Below are positions 12,001 through 18,000 of a stretch of DNA of 24,110 nucleotides, piece by piece (positions within the stretch are counted from its first letter, which is position 1; each line of letters begins with the position of its first letter). Source of the DNA: a virus (Duplodnaviria; Heunggongvirae; Uroviricota; Caudoviricetes). Location: the IMG/VR virus record IMGVR_UViG_2534681831_000037; one strand, given 5' to 3'. The position numbers are program-made.

Positions 12001-15000
12001 TCACTTTCCGTTACCAGCGCGGCTTTCGGCTCTGCTGGTAAATTATCGCCCGGCATGCAGTAACGAAATCCACCGTTCTGATTAACGCGTGCCAGCCGCC
12101 CCGTTGCGGTTACCACCGCCAGCGTGGAAGCAACCTTGCTAGTACTGACACCGAACTTACCCGCTATTTCTTCACAGGTTTTAGCCCCCTCCTGAGCGAT
12201 AAACTCAATCATCATGTTAGCGCTAACTTTTGGAGCGACCTCTTCGGTCAGCATATCCTGTGTTTCAGATTTTACTGGCCGCCCTTCGGTTACCCCGGCT
12301 TCACCTTCGACAGCCAGAAACCAGGTGTGACCCGTTTTATCAACAACGCCATTTTTTTTGAGTTCCCACAGTTCGTTAAGAACTTCTTCACGGCTGATAT
12401 CAAGCCGCGCCGCCAGTTCAACAGAATTGGCTTTTCCCATCGCTTTCAGTGCATGCAATACAGTTTCCATCGAAAATTTACCTCGTCAAAAATTCTCACA
12501 TACCCTGACGTCCAACGTTTGACCGCCAGCTCTCCCAGTTAAAATTCACCCAACGACCACCATTCATGGTCATACGGTCCATCACCCGATCTCCGAGGAG
12601 TGTGCTCATCGCTGCGTGATTCAGGTTCGTCAGCATTCCGACACTACGCATCGAAGCCGTTCTGCGGTCGACTATCTGGTTCAGCGTGACCTGCTCGTTG
12701 CGCGTATCCCGCTGCATGCCAATTTCATCAAGGACCAGAAGGTCAACTCCACAAAGCTCCTGTAAAAATTTTTCCCCGGACTGGCCGTTGTCGTAGCCGT
12801 CATGCAACACGCTCATGACATCGGACACGGTGACGATAATCACGCTTCTCCCCTTCGCCATCAGCCGATTGCCAATCGCTGCTGCCAGGTGATTTTTACC
12901 GGTACCAGGTTTACCGCTGAACACGAAGTTTGTACATCCGGTCATCAATTCATCGGCAATGGATTTCGCCTGGCTCAGAGCATGGCGCTGACCGTCGTTC
13001 TGCACCCGGTAGTTCCCGAATGAGCACTTCCTGTGAAGCGGCTGGATGCCCGCACGGTTCAGGATTTTTTCAACCCGCACCTGATGATTCAGGCGGTTAA
13101 TCTCCTCGCTGCGTTTTCGTCCTTCAGCAAGTTGCCATTCCCGCCACTCCTCCACCGTCCGGTACGGTGGAACCGCCCCCTGTGGTGCAAGTCTGCGAAT
13201 ACGTTCAAGAACCCCAACTGCCGCAATGTTTTTCATGACACGTCACCCCCTGAATCCCGGCGGTATTTCAGTGTCCGGTTCAGAAATGTGATTCACGCAA
13301 CGCTGCGCAGGCGAACGCCCCAGGCGGATAACCAGTTCATCCCATTTTTCCCGGAGTTTTGCCGGACTCATGATGTTTTTTACCCAGAACGAATCCCGCT
13401 GGAGACGCCCAAACATTTCACAAATTTGTCTGTGAGTTCTGCCATCCAGCATCCGCATTGTGCGAACGTCATTGGCCCATGCTGTCCAGTTGGGTTCTTT
13501 CGGTCTAGTGATCTCGCCATCATCGCTGGCCGCCTGCTCGTAAAGACTCACGATTCGTCCCCAGATCCACTGTGCGCACACCAAATCTTCCTGACTTCCC
13601 CACTGGCGTTTTTTCGCACTGAACACAACCGCGTCAGGGTGTCGGGTTAAAAAATCCTGTTCAGCCGTCTGCGGGTCCGGTTGCGAAGCGTCCGGACAAG
13701 AAGATCTTTTATCTGACGGATCAGGTTTTAATACTGACGGATCGGGGTCAATCATCGCCCCCCTAATCGGCAGTTTTTTATCAACAGTTGATCCATCAAA
13801 ATTTGACGGGTCAACCGTTGAGGGGTCAATATTTGACGGGTCAACTGTTAACGGGTCATTTTTTGCCGGGCTAATTTTTCTTTTCGGTTTATATGACTCA
13901 CGCGCCGCCGCCGCAGCTGCTTCGAGTTTTTCCACATTAAGCCGATAGATATTGCTTACATTACGCCCACCGACCTTACGCTCTTCCTTCGTCAGCCAGC
14001 CCTCTTTCGCCAGTTCTGCAATAGCCGATTTCACTGTGGATTCACTTCTTGCACCGATCTGACGCCGGATAGTTTCAATGGCAGGCCATGACACGCCCTC
14101 GTCATTGCTGTAGTCTGCAAGACGGGCCATAACCGCCACCCTGGATAAGATCATGCCGGTGAAGGCGCACCCTTCCCAGACAAGACCATGAAGCTTGCTG
14201 CTCATAAAACCCCCGAACACCGTGCTTTTAGTGCATCACCACAGCATTCCCTGCCGGGCCGCCGCGATTCATCTGGTCATACAAAACAACCGCTGACGCA
14301 ACAAAATCATCGACATCCTTCACCAGCCGATCCCTCCGTTCGACGATCTCACGGTAATATTCAGAACTGTGGCTGCGCATACGGGCCACCAGCAAAGGCG
14401 GCATCGCCTTTTCGATCGCCGGTAACAGAGCCTGCATTTTTTCAACAGCATCAGGGGTGTCTTTATCCAGCCAACGGAAAATTTTCTGGGTATTACGGGC
14501 CAGGGCTTCCGGATGGCTGTCGTCGTACAGTTCAGGGAACGTCATCCCCAGTTCGAAATAAGTCCGGGCTATTTCAGCTGCAGGAACTTTCTCACCATCA
14601 GGGTATGCCCAGGCATTCATCGCCATGCGGATGTGCTCATGTTTGATTTTCATGAATCATTTGCCTCTTGATGCTTCGGGTATGATCGTTTTCGTCATTT
14701 GGTTGCTTCATCGACATATTCTGCGAATAACATGACGAGCGTCGTAAGTATGTCCAATCAACATCAGGACGAAGTTCTTCACACAGAACACCACCTTTTG
14801 TTGCTCGTTCAATCGCAGGACATCTCTCAGCAGGTAACTGACGTACACCTTTGATCCATTGATTTACGCTTGGAGGAGATACACCTAAAAGCCTAGCCAT
14901 TGCTGATTGCCCACCGACAACAGCACAAGCTCGTTTGAATGAATAGTTATCTTTTTTCATCGAATGAACTCCAAAAAACACGCAACAATATTAGGCTTAG

Positions 15001-18000
15001 CCTAATGAAATTGTCAATAGGCTATGCCTAATACATCGAGAGTAGGGATTGCCTAACGCGATGCGCATAGGAGACTATTAAGCAATGCTTAGTGGTAAAG
15101 ACTTAGGCCGAGCGATAGAGCAGGCCATTAACAAAAAAATTGCATCAGGAGCCGTCAAATCAAAGGCGGAAATCGCACGTCATTTCAAAGTCCAACCACC
15201 ATCAATCCATGACTGGATTAAGAAAGGTTCGATAAGTAAAGACAAACTTCCAGAACTATGGCGTTTCTTTTCTGATGTGGTTGGTCCAGAGCATTGGGGG
15301 CTTAACGAATACCCCATACCAACCCCATCCACTTCAGATACAAAAAGTGAACTTTTAGACATAAACAGCCTTTATCAAGCCGCCTCTGATGAAAAAAGAG
15401 CAATTGTGGCTTTCATCTTATCTGGAAATGCTACGGAGCCTAGTTGGGTTGATCATGACGTTCGCGCCTACATTGCCGCAATGGAAATGAAGGTAGCTAA
15501 CTATCTGAAAAATCAAGAATCAAAACGGAAAAGCCAGAACATCACCAAGACAGGAACTTAAACTTATATGGTCCGACGGGAAATTCCTAGTTCCCGTTAG
15601 TTAACTCCTACTACCTCTTCCACAAACCATCACCTATTAGGTTGCGCCCAAATTATTAGGCATAGCCTATTGACAAGTAATTAGGCATTTCCTATAGTTT
15701 TCCCATACCAACCCATCCCGTCCCACACAATACAGGGCAATACCTCGAGTTACCAGGCAGTGGTCACGGGCTAAGTAGCCAGCCTGAGGCATACGAACAT
15801 GACGGCAGTTGTTGATTGATACAAAGCGCAGTAGATAAAACGTTCCGCCACCCGGCGTTAAGGGGAAATGAGGTCAACATGGATACTATCGATCTTGGCA
15901 ACAACGAATCTCTGGTATGTGGCGTGTTTCCCAATCAGGACGGCACATTCACCGCCATGACGTATACCAAAAGCAAATCGTTTAAAACCGAAGCTGGCGC
16001 ACGTCGCTGGCTTGCCAAAAATACCAGCTAAACCATTTATTGGATTAATTCAATATTCTTGCTGTAGGGGTATAGCCGAGGCCACCAAAGCCCGGAGGTG
16101 GTGAAATAAAACCGGGCACAACACGAAGGCGCATTTCCGGTATCCATAAAGAGTCGGTCTTGTCTGTTAAATTTAAATGGTGGGAGTGCGCCTCCGGTTG
16201 TGAATAACAACACTGCTGTGTGTAGTCTTGGCGGCATCAGTTTTTTCTTGAAGTTCGACTGATGTCCGCCCTTTTTAAAGTGAATTTTGTGATGCGGTGA
16301 ATGCGGCTAAGCGCACGCGGCACAGTTAAAAGTCATGTTAGTCCTTATTGGTTTGGGTGGGAAAGCCGACTGTAATTGTTAACTGGTTGCAGTCACCTGG
16401 AGGCACCAGGCACCGCATCAACAAAGTTCATTTGTAAAAATGGAGATAATTATGATTGCACATCACTTCGGAACTGATGAAATACCACGTCAGTGTGTGA
16501 CTCCTGGTGATTATGTTCTTCATGAAGGCCGGACATATATCGCCTCGGCAAACAATATTAAAAAACGAAAACTTTATATTCGTAACCTGACCACAAAAAC
16601 ATGCATTTCTGACTGCATGGTTAAAGTCTTCCTCGGTAGTGATGGTTTACCTGTAAAAGCGGAGTCATGGTGATGGATAAGAAAATAAAATGTGCTTACC
16701 ACCTTTGCAAAAAAGACGTTGAAGAAAGCAAAACTATTGAAAGAATGCTTCATTTCATGCACGGAACTTTATCAAAAGACGAACCGAGAAAATATTGCAG
16801 TGAAACTTGTGCCGAAAAAAACCAGATGGCACACGAACTTTAATTAACTGACTATTCGAAACTGAATTTATGCCAGCAATGGCAGGGATTCACTCAACCT
16901 TAATTAAGGAGAAAAACATGATTACCAATTATGAAGCCACTGTTGTAACTACTGATGACATTGTTCACGAGGTCAATCTGGACGGAAAGCGTATTGGCTA
17001 CGTGATTAAAACAGAAAATAAAGAAACCCCATTCACTGTGGTTGATATCGACGGTCCATCAGGCAACGTTAAAACACTTCACGAAGGCGTCAAAAAAAAT
17101 GTGCCTGGTGCACATTGGAAATAATCTACCAGCAGAAAAAAAAGCTGAGTTTCTGGCAACTCTGATTGCAATGAAATTAAAAGGTGAAATTTAAAAAAAG
17201 AAAGCCTGCACAGTGTACAGGCCTGAGTGAAAAACCTGGGACATTTATTCATCACTCGCACTAAATTTTAATCTGAGTTGAGGTTAAAAAACAATGAGCA
17301 CTGACAAACAAAATTTTGCGTTACATTGCGACGCGAAAAATGAGGGCGCAAGAAAACGCCTCGGCATCAAAGGCGGCTTTTTCTGGACAGAGGCAAAAAA
17401 ACTTTCTGTTGCGGTTTCACGCTGCATTGCTGCAATGGACGATGCTGGCTACGATGAAGATGACTTTAAAAAAACCGTTCGCGTAAATTTCCCCGTCGTG
17501 AATGACCTTCCACCGGAAGGCGTGTTTGATACTGAATTCTGCAACCGCTATGAAAAAGGCGGGGAAGATGGCATCACCATGATGGCTATATCCTTCAATG
17601 ACAACATCAACGGTGAAGATGCCACAACTGCTGGCGATGACAACGATGACCCGGACGGAACTATTCCGGATGATGTGGAGAAAAGCGAATCCCCGGACAG
17701 CGACGATGACTGTTCTGAGTGTGAAATTCCCGTCGCCACTCTGAGCCTTACTCATCGCTTCCTTCACCTCTTCTTCTTCAGCAAGGATGAAGATGGAAAA
17801 TACCGGCATCACGCCACACCAGAACAACGCAATAACGTGATCCGTATGGAGATGGACACAGAGGACAGTTACCTTCAGAGCCTGCTTACTGCTGTGCGCG
17901 CCGCACATCATGAACTGGATAAACTGACGAACTATCACCTTAGTCGCCTGGCTGAATCTGTAGGGAAAGCATTCCCCCACTCTGCAAATCATCGCATCAG

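What the first reader, a model, noticed from the sequence alone, without database searches (positions are those of the whole stretch)
14985..15700. A 22-bp operator sequence occurs as a perfect inverted pair flanking racR
TTGTCAATAGGCTATGCCTAAT at 15011-15032 (in the ydaS/racR divergent promoter) is present as its exact reverse complement at 15655-15676, overlapping the -35 of a PL-like promoter. Additional TTAGGC-containing near-palindromes lie at 14989-15005 and 15678-15694. This is an OR/OL-like arrangement separated by only ~640 bp, which would allow one repressor to control both divergent promoters and possibly loop the DNA.
Basis: seen in the sequence. Interest (0 to 1): 0.5.

Follow-up and report, generated by a model that had tools for sequence, protein, structure and literature searches.

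The report
Rac prophage left and right operators
The repeated sequence is real: it marks two clusters of repressor-binding sites, one on each side of the Rac prophage repressor gene racR, each built into a strong outward-facing promoter, which is the standard lambda-type layout, and only the right-hand cluster has been studied experimentally.

Summary
The exact inverted pair is 23 bp long (15011-15033 and 15654-15676; 0 of 100 shuffles). Each arm is a composite: a 15-bp RacR operator (TTAGGC-N3-GCCTAA) fused to a TTGACA -35 box.

The window holds six operator-like sites with at most 2 mismatches (0.78 expected). All six lie in two clusters flanking racR. Each cluster overlaps a near-consensus outward-facing promoter, PydaS on the - strand and a PL-like promoter on the + strand.

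The module [O2]-TGACA-N5-[O1]-TAT recurs on both sides of the repressor gene in 13 of 21 loci found by protein similarity, and in two sequenced phages. These loci reach as far as Achromobacter and Herbaspirillum, and the gap between the gene and the downstream pair ranges from 68 to 2490 bp. Heteroimmune E. coli prophages with the same flanks carry their own matching palindromes at both positions.

Published work on K-12 footprints RacR on the right cluster only. It also reports RacR octamers and shows the left operon being derepressed while racR mRNA falls.

So this is an ordinary lambdoid OR/OL arrangement. The left half appears undescribed for Rac. RacR binding at OL and DNA looping are inferred, not shown. 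Interest is modest.

The parts
14637..14960 (-). ydaS-like (Cro-like) gene, 107 aa, first gene of the rightward operon (ydaS-ydaT-replication genes)
   Evidence: ORF list; Pfam YdaS_toxin 3.8e-30 and P22_Cro 1e-8; RefSeq annotation of the identical strain 95NR1
14988..15017 (-). PydaS (PR-like) promoter: -35 TTGACA at 15017-15012, 18-nt spacer, -10 TAATAT at 14993-14988; predicted start near 14981
   Evidence: Promoter scan, 10 of 12. The same hexamers were mapped by primer extension and mutagenesis in K-12 (PMC9638921, read; PMC11879457)
14991..15005 (.). OR1: TTAGGCTTAGCCTAA, perfect palindromic operator lying in the spacer and -10 of PydaS
   Evidence: 0 mismatches. It corresponds to O1 of K-12, which RacR protects at the lowest concentration (PMC9638921)
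15011..15033 (.). Left arm of the exact 23-bp inverted repeat (-35 of PydaS plus OR2 plus flanking bases)
   Evidence: I2, 100% complementary
15017..15031 (.). OR2: ATAGGCTATGCCTAA, abutting the -35 of PydaS
   Evidence: 1 mismatch. Half-sites are conserved and the N3 spacer varies across 75 unique Rac-like sequences
15042..15056 (.). OR3: GTAGGGATTGCCTAA, in the racR promoter region; homologue of the O2 site of other genera, here without a -35
   Evidence: 2 mismatches; comparison with Mixta, Morganella, Proteus and Erwinia OR regions
15078..15092 (.). Fourth, weaker site TTAAGCAATGCTTAG centred on the racR start codon (autoregulation site, and the site of C-protein cross-talk in K-12)
   Evidence: 3 mismatches here but 1-2 mismatches at the same position in 14 other loci. 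Described for K-12 as the operator overlapping the ATG (PMC9638921)
15085..15561 (+). racR, 158 aa repressor: N-terminal XRE/lambda-cI-type HTH domain (about residues 1-72), disordered linker, helical C-terminal domain
   Evidence: NCBIfam NF049929, 246 bits; AF2 model pLDDT 82.5; weak fold matches to XRE/cI/Cro HTH domains only
15637..15651 (.). Possible OL3: TTAGGTTGCGCCCAA, a weak site with only the left half conserved, 19 bp from OL2
   Evidence: 2 mismatches; 3 mismatches in K-12 and absent in other genera; conservation profile
15654..15676 (.). Right arm of the exact 23-bp inverted repeat (OL2 plus the -35 of PL)
15656..15670 (.). OL2: TTAGGCATAGCCTAT, abutting the -35 of the PL-like promoter
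   Evidence: 1 mismatch. The identical 15-mer is at the same position in K-12, E. ruysiae, Morganella, Proteus and an unclassified Pseudomonadota MAG locus
15670..15698 (+). PL-like promoter: TTGACA-17-TATAGT; predicted start at A15705, reading into DUF1391, a DicF-like RNA, kil, ydaE, recE-like, recT, ralR, xis and int
   Evidence: 11 of 12; module conserved in 13 loci and 2 phages; downstream gene order from RefSeq
15681..15695 (.). OL1: TTAGGCATTTCCTAT, lying in the spacer and -10 of PL, 25 bp from OL2
   Evidence: 2 mismatches; the 25-bp spacing of the downstream pair holds in 12 of the 13 loci that have it, 26 bp in L023, and in both phages
15879..16031 (+). First gene of the leftward operon, DUF1391 (ydaG/ydfA-like), 50 aa
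   Evidence: Pfam DUF1391 3.5e-29; annotation

Best explanation
The two arms are the core of the right (OR) and left (OL) operator-promoter modules of a Rac-type lambdoid immunity region. Each module has the form [operator 2]-TGACA-N5-[operator 1]-TAT. Operator 2 (TTAGGC-N3-GCCTAT) supplies the first T of the -35 box TTGACA. Operator 1 fills the spacer, and its last bases are the first bases of the -10 box. RacR dimers bound at O1 and O2 would therefore block RNA polymerase at two strong outward-facing promoters. PydaS drives ydaS (cro-like), ydaT (cII-like) and the replication genes. The PL-like promoter drives the DUF1391 gene, kil, recET, ralR, xis and int. Further sites (OR3 and the site on the racR ATG) autoregulate racR. 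What is shown: the sequence anatomy, its statistics, its conservation and its co-variation with repressor type (here), and RacR binding plus promoter mapping at the OR side in K-12 (literature). What is inferred: RacR binding and repression at OL/PL, and any OR-OL loop. The exactness of the 23-bp identity goes beyond what function requires. It most likely reflects common descent or conversion, in which the E. coli Rac lineage carries an extra OR operator that is a copy of the OL2/-35 unit.
For: Exact pair and motif statistics. Both arms sit in near-consensus promoters with the same operator geometry. OR matches the RacR footprint and consensus and the mapped PydaS in K-12 (PMC9638921; PMC5700373). 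K-12 Rac, only 86% identical, keeps the sites at both places. Among 21 loci retrieved by protein similarity only, 13 have a downstream pair. The pair is 25 bp apart in 12 of them and 26 bp in L023, always reads in the direction of the repressor gene, and lies 68-2490 bp past the stop codon. This includes loci whose repressor carries an S24 peptidase domain. Phages vB_EcoS-683R6 and Klebsiella KpF5 have the same arrangement. Heteroimmune prophages with the same flanks have TACC-N4-GGTA or TGAAC-N5-GTACA at both positions and no RacR motif. Half-sites are conserved while N3 spacers and linkers vary. The left operon is derepressed while racR mRNA drops 11-20 fold. RacR elutes as an octamer on size-exclusion chromatography (PMC11014345).
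Against: No experiment in the literature I could read tests RacR on the left cluster. Left-operon induction after RacR loss could be indirect, through YdaS, YdaT or excision. The Rho literature attributes kil silencing to termination of read-through from the racR promoter and does not invoke a separate PL (PMC4150792). OL1 and OL3 each have 2 mismatches, and OL3 is not conserved outside Escherichia. 8 of the 21 protein-found loci show no downstream pair within the DNA held. The conservation profile comes from sequences selected by the OL2 20-mer, so it is uninformative for OL2 itself.
Confidence: 0.85

Rival explanations
1. The left cluster is a non-functional relic or duplicate of OR sequence. 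Under this view the leftward genes are controlled only by Rho-dependent termination of read-through from the racR promoters and by indirect effects.
For: The Rho studies model kil silencing as termination within racR of transcripts from the racR promoter. No published binding data for OL were found.
Against: The module is conserved with an 11-of-12 promoter across genera and in phages, whatever the distance from the repressor gene. It co-varies with repressor type. Left-operon RNAs rise while racR RNA falls, which read-through cannot explain.
Confidence: 0.06
2. The left cluster is mainly a target of the Cro-like YdaS rather than of RacR.
For: In CP-933P both PaaR2 and YdaS repress PL933P about 100-fold (PMC8630535). 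In K-12, YdaS lowers PydaST activity.
Against: The motif at OL is the one footprinted by RacR at OR. It also tracks the RacR-type DNA-binding domain, residues 1-73, which is nearly invariant across genera. YdaS binding to the same sites would add to the main explanation rather than replace it.
Confidence: 0.05
3. The inverted repeats are substrates for inversion or cassette exchange of racR, that is, an invertible switch or recombination hotspot rather than operators.
For: A 23-bp perfect inverted repeat brackets one gene. The mosaic boundary with heteroimmune prophages lies right after PL.
Against: In all 74 sequences carrying both arms, racR reads in one orientation relative to ydaS (and to DUF1391 where that flank was detected); none is inverted. 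No invertase gene lies nearby. The arms are explained base by base as operator plus -35.
Confidence: 0.01
4. The repeat is a chance match.
For: None.
Against: 0 of 100 shuffles give any match. There are 6 clustered motif hits against 0.78 expected. The same 20-mer pair, 643-647 bp apart, occurs in 74 of the 128 held sequences that carry the 20-mer, nearly all of them IMG/VR viral contigs.
Confidence: 0.005

Closest known systems
Phage lambda OR/OL with PR, PRM and PL (cI/cro switch)
   Same: The repressor gene is flanked by two multipartite operator clusters with one recognition sequence. Each cluster overlaps an outward early promoter. The cro-like and cII-like genes are divergent from the repressor gene. 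Extra sites autoregulate the repressor. The repressor forms octamers (RacR: PMC11014345). Site spacings of 25-26 bp and 19 bp resemble lambda's, which I recall as about 24, 23 and 20 bp.
   Different: RacR lacks the S24 autocleavage domain (no Pfam hit). Its C-terminal domain is helical. The operator is 15 bp (6-N3-6). OR has four sites in E. coli Rac. OR and OL are only about 640-690 bp apart because no rex-like cargo lies between them. Looping and PRM-type activation have not been shown.
Qin prophage dicA/dicC with dicBp (E. coli K-12)
   Same: This is the positional homologue. A short, non-cleavable repressor is divergent from a cro-like gene, with three operators in the intergenic region and three at the promoter downstream of the repressor gene (PMC10448788). 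The first gene of that operon is DUF1391 (ydfA), as here. A DicF-like RNA also lies in the operon here.
   Different: The repressor specificity and operator sequence differ. The shared DNA begins only at the predicted PL start.
CP-933P prophage PaaR2/YdaS/YdaT with PR933P, PRM933P and PL933P
   Same: [quoted passage not shown] Both regulators repress it, and PaaR2 octamerises (PMC8630535).
   Different: The repressor and its operator (GTTTAGTAA-type 18-bp palindromes) are different, and a toxin-antitoxin pair lies between the repressor gene and OL.
K-12 Rac racR-ydaS intergenic operators O1-O4 (Krishnamurthi 2017; Wisniewska 2022)
   Same: The same element at 86% DNA identity: the same consensus, the same PydaS hexamers, and the same site over the racR ATG.
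   Different: Those studies used only the intergenic fragment. The cluster downstream of racR is not mentioned in any of the papers I could read. In K-12 the OR2/OL2 arms differ by one spacer base, so the longest exact inverted match is 14 nt.

Membership tests
Lambdoid immunity region with paired OR/OL operators | Repressor gene divergent from a cro-like gene, with several operators overlapping the promoters between them | tested here: met
   racR (+) and ydaS-like (-) genes; three to four sites overlapping PydaS and the racR start
Lambdoid immunity region with paired OR/OL operators | A second operator cluster with the same recognition sequence, overlapping an early promoter that points away from the repressor gene on its other side | tested here: met
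   15637-15695 overlaps TTGACA-17-TATAGT on the + strand; conserved in 13 loci and 2 phages
Lambdoid immunity region with paired OR/OL operators | Operators at both positions change together with repressor specificity in heteroimmune relatives | tested here: met
   L025 has TACC-N4-GGTA and L026 has TGAAC-N5-GTACA at both positions, with no RacR motif
Lambdoid immunity region with paired OR/OL operators | The repressor physically binds both clusters and represses both promoters | not testable with these tools
   OR binding is shown for K-12 RacR by gel shift and DNase I footprinting (PMC5700373, PMC9638921). OL binding is untested. The RNA-seq results are consistent with it
Lambdoid immunity region with paired OR/OL operators | Long-range OR-OL cooperativity (DNA loop) through repressor octamers | not testable with these tools
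   Size-exclusion chromatography gives 151 kDa, an octamer, for K-12 RacR (PMC11014345). The spacing between arms varies over 643-647 bp, so phasing says nothing either way
LexA/CI-type S24 self-cleaving repressors | C-terminal Peptidase_S24 domain | tested here: not met
   No Pfam family for the window's RacR, and the C-terminal domain is helical in the model. Relatives with the same DNA-binding domain do carry S24
RacR (NCBIfam NF049929 equivalog) | Whole-protein score above the curated cutoff | tested here: met
   246.3 bits against a cutoff of 200; 91% identical to the K-12-type RacR cluster
Qin dicBF-type left operon | DUF1391 (ydfA-like) first gene after the repressed promoter | tested here: met
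   Pfam DUF1391 3.5e-29
Qin dicBF-type left operon | DicF sRNA within the operon | tested here: inconclusive
   Rfam DicF at 16217-16271, 42.8 bits, below the gathering score of 48, E 2.5e-7
Invertible DNA switch | Both orientations of the segment between the inverted repeats occur | tested here: not met
   0 of 74 loci have racR inverted relative to ydaS (and to DUF1391 where detected)

The most novel reading that the evidence does not exclude
The RacR octamer reported for K-12 may not be four dimers lined up on the intergenic region, as its authors proposed. It may instead be a lambda-like bridge between a tetramer on OR1-OR2 and a tetramer on OL1-OL2, closing a loop of about 0.65 kb that contains racR itself. 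This would couple repression of both early promoters to racR autoregulation. Separately, the E. coli Rac lineage may have gained its fourth OR operator and its unusually strong PydaS by copying the OL2/-35 unit of PL into OR, which would explain the exact 23-bp identity.
Probability: 0.4. Interest if true: 0.45.

Novelty: new member of a known kind. Interest (0 to 1): 0.3.

Why it matters
RacR, YdaS and YdaT form an actively studied module: racR is an essential gene in K-12, and the module is involved in toxicity, Rac excision and cross-talk with a restriction-modification controller. Current models use only the racR-ydaS intergenic region, and one of these papers states that the RacR regulon has not been characterised in detail. 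A second RacR operator cluster built into a near-consensus promoter would give a direct mechanism for RacR control of kil, recET, ralR and xis/int. It would offer another reading of the reported octamer. It would also mean that reporter and binding experiments done on the isolated intergenic fragment may miss cooperativity with the left cluster. The biology is expected for a lambdoid phage, so this fills a gap rather than overturning anything.

Tried and rejected
1. Invertible-switch idea: I checked the orientation of racR in all 74 sequences that carry both arms. None is inverted.

2. Chance: rejected by shuffles.

3. Motif copies elsewhere in the window: none with at most 2 mismatches. At 3 mismatches the hits outside the racR region are at background level, 14 found against 8 expected.

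4. Structural evidence for oligomerisation or looping: the AF2 model is confident for both domains, but Foldseek against the PDB gave only weak matches (E of 0.07 or worse) to XRE/cI/Cro HTH domains and nothing for the C-terminal domain. A sequence search of the PDB gave nothing significant.

5. Helical phasing: the arm spacing varies over 643-647 bp among Rac-like sequences, so it is uninformative.

6. A hairpin after the racR stop (15575-15598) as a terminator: folding z-scores of -0.65 and -1.4 are not significant, and the terminator scan found none.

7. The 1996 kil/racR paper (PMC178304), which might describe a left promoter, is not held. The claim that OL is undescribed therefore rests only on the papers I could read.

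8. The conservation profile from IMG/VR sequences is biased for OL2, because those sequences were selected by that 20-mer. I used it only for OR and the flanks.
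Full report
**What is in the sequence**

The 22-mer TTGTCAATAGGCTATGCCTAAT is at 15011-15032. Its exact reverse complement is at 15655-15676. Allowing up to 3 mismatches finds nothing else in the 24,110-bp window, and no shuffle produced a match. The identity is 23 nt long, 15011-15033 and 15654-15676.

The arms bracket a 158-aa ORF at 15085-15561 on the + strand. On the left is a divergent 107-aa ORF at 14960-14637 on the - strand. On the right is a 50-aa ORF at 15879-16031 on the + strand.

**Identity of the region**

The 1.5 kb around the finding is 100% identical to the chromosome of E. coli 95NR1. There it is annotated as ydaT-family, HTH protein, racR, DUF1391, kil, ydaE, a PD-(D/E)XK nuclease-like recE-type gene, recT, ralR, xis and int. 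K-12 Rac is 86% identical.

- The central protein passes the NCBIfam RacR equivalog (246 bits, cutoff 200) and has no Pfam family.
- The divergent gene is YdaS/P22-Cro-like. It is followed by a YdaT-family gene.
- The right-hand small gene is DUF1391.

**Anatomy**

Each arm is a composite. The core is a 15-bp palindrome, TTAGGC-N3-GCCTAA. With at most 2 mismatches this motif occurs exactly six times in the window, against 0.78 expected and a maximum of 3 in 100 shuffles.

| Cluster | Site | Coordinates | Mismatches |
|---|---|---|---|
| Right (OR) | OR1 | 14991-15005 | 0 |
| Right (OR) | OR2 | 15017-15031 | 1 |
| Right (OR) | OR3 | 15042-15056 | 2 |
| Left (OL) | OL3 | 15637-15651 | 2 |
| Left (OL) | OL2 | 15656-15670 | 1 |
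| Left (OL) | OL1 | 15681-15695 | 2 |

Centre-to-centre spacings are 26 and 25 bp on the right, and 19 and 25 bp on the left. A seventh, weaker site (15078-15092, 3 mismatches) is centred on the racR ATG.

The promoter scan finds only two sigma-70-like sites in 14800-16100, and both involve the arms:

- On the - strand, TTGACA(15017-15012)-18-TAATAT(14993-14988).
- On the + strand, TTGACA(15670-15675)-17-TATAGT(15693-15698), 11 of 12 consensus positions.

In both promoters one operator ends in the first T of the -35 box. The next operator occupies the spacer and runs into the -10 box. The arms are therefore operator 2 plus the -35 of two outward-facing promoters. The 22-bp "operator" is really a 15-bp operator plus a promoter element.

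**What is already known**

For K-12 Rac, Krishnamurthi et al. noted three GCCTAA/TTAGGC repeats in the 123-bp racR-ydaS intergenic region. They saw three RacR-DNA complexes by gel shift (PMC5700373).

Wisniewska et al. mapped PydaS (TTGACA, TAATAT) and three racR promoters, and footprinted RacR on the intergenic region. They derived the consensus (T/A)TAGGC-n3-GCCTA(T/A). The ydaS promoter was protected at the lowest RacR concentration, and one operator lies over the racR ATG (PMC9638921). Later papers speak of four operators. The right cluster of this window is that element.

None of the papers I could read mentions sites downstream of racR. [quoted passage not shown] The 1996 kil/racR paper is not held, so an earlier description cannot be excluded.

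**Evidence that the left cluster is a real operator-promoter**

1. K-12 keeps it. TTAGGCATAGCCTAT-TGACA and TTAGGCATTACCTAT-AGT lie at the same place, 104-129 bp after the racR stop.

2. It is conserved across distant relatives. The RacR N-terminal domain (residues 1-73) is nearly invariant from Escherichia to Proteus, Yersinia, Erwinia and beyond.
   - I retrieved 21 genomic loci by protein similarity alone and scanned them. Thirteen have a downstream pair of sites. The pair is 25 bp apart in 12 of them (26 bp in L023) and sits on the strand that reads away from the repressor gene.
   - The distance past the stop codon ranges from 68 to 2490 bp.
   - The conserved pattern is TTAGGCnnnGCCTAT-TGACA-N5-TTAGGCnnnGCCTAA-TAT. 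It appears at both the cro-side and the left-side promoter.
   - This includes loci in Achromobacter, Pigmentiphaga and Herbaspirillum, where the same DNA-binding domain is fused to a Peptidase_S24 domain, as in true CI-type repressors.

3. Two sequenced phages have it. E. coli phage vB_EcoS-683R6 has 3+3 sites. Klebsiella phage KpF5 has OL 1.4 kb downstream, after a DUF450 cargo gene.

4. An immunity-swap control supports it. E. coli prophages share the ydaT and DUF1391 flanks but encode other repressors, and they carry their own palindromes at both positions.
   - L025 has TACC-N4-GGTA at three sites in the intergenic region and two sites 25 bp apart after the repressor gene.
   - L026 has TGAAC-N5-GTACA at three sites plus two sites 24 bp apart.
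   - Neither has a RacR motif.
   - The DNA shared among these immunity types starts at CATACCAACCC, the predicted +1 of PL.

5. In 75 unique Rac-like sequences the OR half-sites are conserved, while the N3 spacers and inter-operator linkers vary. That set is biased for OL2 by the way it was selected.

6. Published transcriptomes agree. CRISPRi of racR lowers racR RNA 11-20 fold, while ydaG, kilR, ydaE, racC, recE, recT, ralR, xisR and intR rise together with ydaS/T. C-protein interference with racR gives 40-70-fold induction of ydaF, ydaG, kilR, ydaE and racC. Read-through from the racR promoters cannot produce this pattern, although an indirect route through YdaS or YdaT is not excluded.

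**Mechanism**

The best-supported reading is promoter occlusion. RacR dimers on O1 (spacer and -10) and O2 (abutting the -35) would block both early promoters. OR3 and the ATG site would autoregulate racR.

Binding at OR is shown in K-12. Binding at OL is inferred. YdaS may share the sites, as PaaR2 and YdaS do in CP-933P.

Looping is possible, because K-12 RacR elutes as a 151-kDa octamer. The authors assign this to four adjacent intergenic sites and do not discuss a loop. With OL present, a lambda-like bridge between an OR tetramer and an OL tetramer is an equally good reading. I could not test it:

- The AF2 model shows an HTH domain, a disordered linker and a helical C-terminal domain with a long terminal helix.
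- Fold and sequence searches of the PDB give nothing informative for the C-terminal domain.
- The arm spacing varies over 643-647 bp.

**Why the identity is exact**

About 17 of the 23 positions are constrained by the operator half-sites and the -35 box. The rest are free: K-12 differs at one spacer base, and its longest exact inverted match is 14 nt.

In other genera the longest OR/OL inverted match is 7-16 nt. There OR has sites at -60, -35 and 0 relative to the ATG. E. coli Rac has sites at -87, -61 and -36, plus the ATG site.

The E. coli site at -36 (TTAGGCAATCCCTAC) corresponds to the TTAGGCAATTCCTAT-TGAC site of the other genera, but it has lost its -35. The extra site equals the OL2 unit, TTAGGCATAGCCTAT-TGACA, which is conserved at OL across genera. 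This suggests that the OL2/-35 unit was copied into OR in the Escherichia lineage. That is inference only.

The pair is common. Of 128 held sequences with the OL2 20-mer, 74 have it as an inverted pair.

**Rivals**

- An invertible switch is rejected: racR is never inverted in the 74 paired loci, and no invertase gene is nearby.
- Chance is rejected.
- A non-functional relic is unlikely given the conservation and co-variation.

**Comparison with known systems**

This is the lambda OR/OL design. The closest documented relatives are Qin dicA/dicC/dicBp and CP-933P.

- Qin has three operators at each place, and its first operon gene, ydfA, is a DUF1391 protein like the one here.
- CP-933P has PL933P with the same -35 and -10 as PR and three OL sites.

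RacR is not an S24 self-cleaving repressor. That feature was tested and not met for this protein, although relatives with the same DNA-binding domain do have an S24 domain.

**Verdict**

The right half is already known. The left half is an expected member of a known kind that appears not to have been described for Rac. Interest is modest. The main value is a direct, easily tested mechanism for RacR control of the leftward operon and an alternative reading of the RacR octamer.

Noticed in passing
window 16217-16271 (+) and 16273-16459 (+): DicF-like sRNA (Rfam RF00039, 42.8 bits against a gathering score of 48, E 2.5e-7, full-length model), followed by an STnc100-like match (37.4 bits against 47, E 7e-6). 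Both lie between the DUF1391 gene and kil, so the leftward operon resembles the Qin dicBF operon.
   Followed up: no
window about 15704 onward (CATACCAACCC...): Mosaic boundary. Prophages with three other immunity types (L024-L026) share the sequence from the predicted PL +1 into the DUF1391 gene, but nothing upstream of it. The conserved untranslated leader of about 175 nt (15705-15878) was not examined for structure or function.
   Followed up: partly
window 15313-15325 and 15702-15714: Exact 13-nt direct repeat CCCATACCAACCC. One copy is inside racR, in the part coding the interdomain linker. The other is at the predicted PL start and mosaic boundary (D8). A similar pair exists in K-12. It may be a recombination joint.
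   Followed up: no
P0101, P0102, P0114; L013, L015, L018, L020, L023: The RacR-type DNA-binding domain (residues 1-73, 53-86% identical) is fused to a Peptidase_S24 domain in Pectobacterium, Achromobacter, Pigmentiphaga, Herbaspirillum and others. Most of these loci (L013, L015, L020, L023) carry the same TTAGGC-N3-GCCTAA operators at OR and OL; L018 has only one weak downstream site. The enterobacterial RacR looks like a CI-type repressor whose cleavage domain was replaced by a helical domain.
   Followed up: partly
L148 (Klebsiella phage KpF5), locus 3215-4369: A DUF450 gene lies between the RacR-type repressor gene and OL, in the position that rexAB occupies in lambda. It is probably a lysogen-expressed cargo or defence gene.
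   Followed up: no
window 15575-15598 (+): An 8-bp hairpin just after the racR stop codon, with a matching one-base change in both arms in K-12. Folding energy is not significantly better than shuffles (z -0.65 and -1.4), and no T-run terminator was detected.
   Followed up: yes
window 17294-20443 (+): The recE-type gene encodes 1049 aa here (annotated as PD-(D/E)XK nuclease-like), longer than K-12 RecE, which I recall as 866 aa.
   Followed up: no
window 15078-15092: The site over the racR ATG is much closer to consensus in other genera (1-2 mismatches) than in E. coli Rac (3 mismatches). In E. coli it coincides with the published off-target site of the C.Csp231I controller protein.
   Followed up: partly
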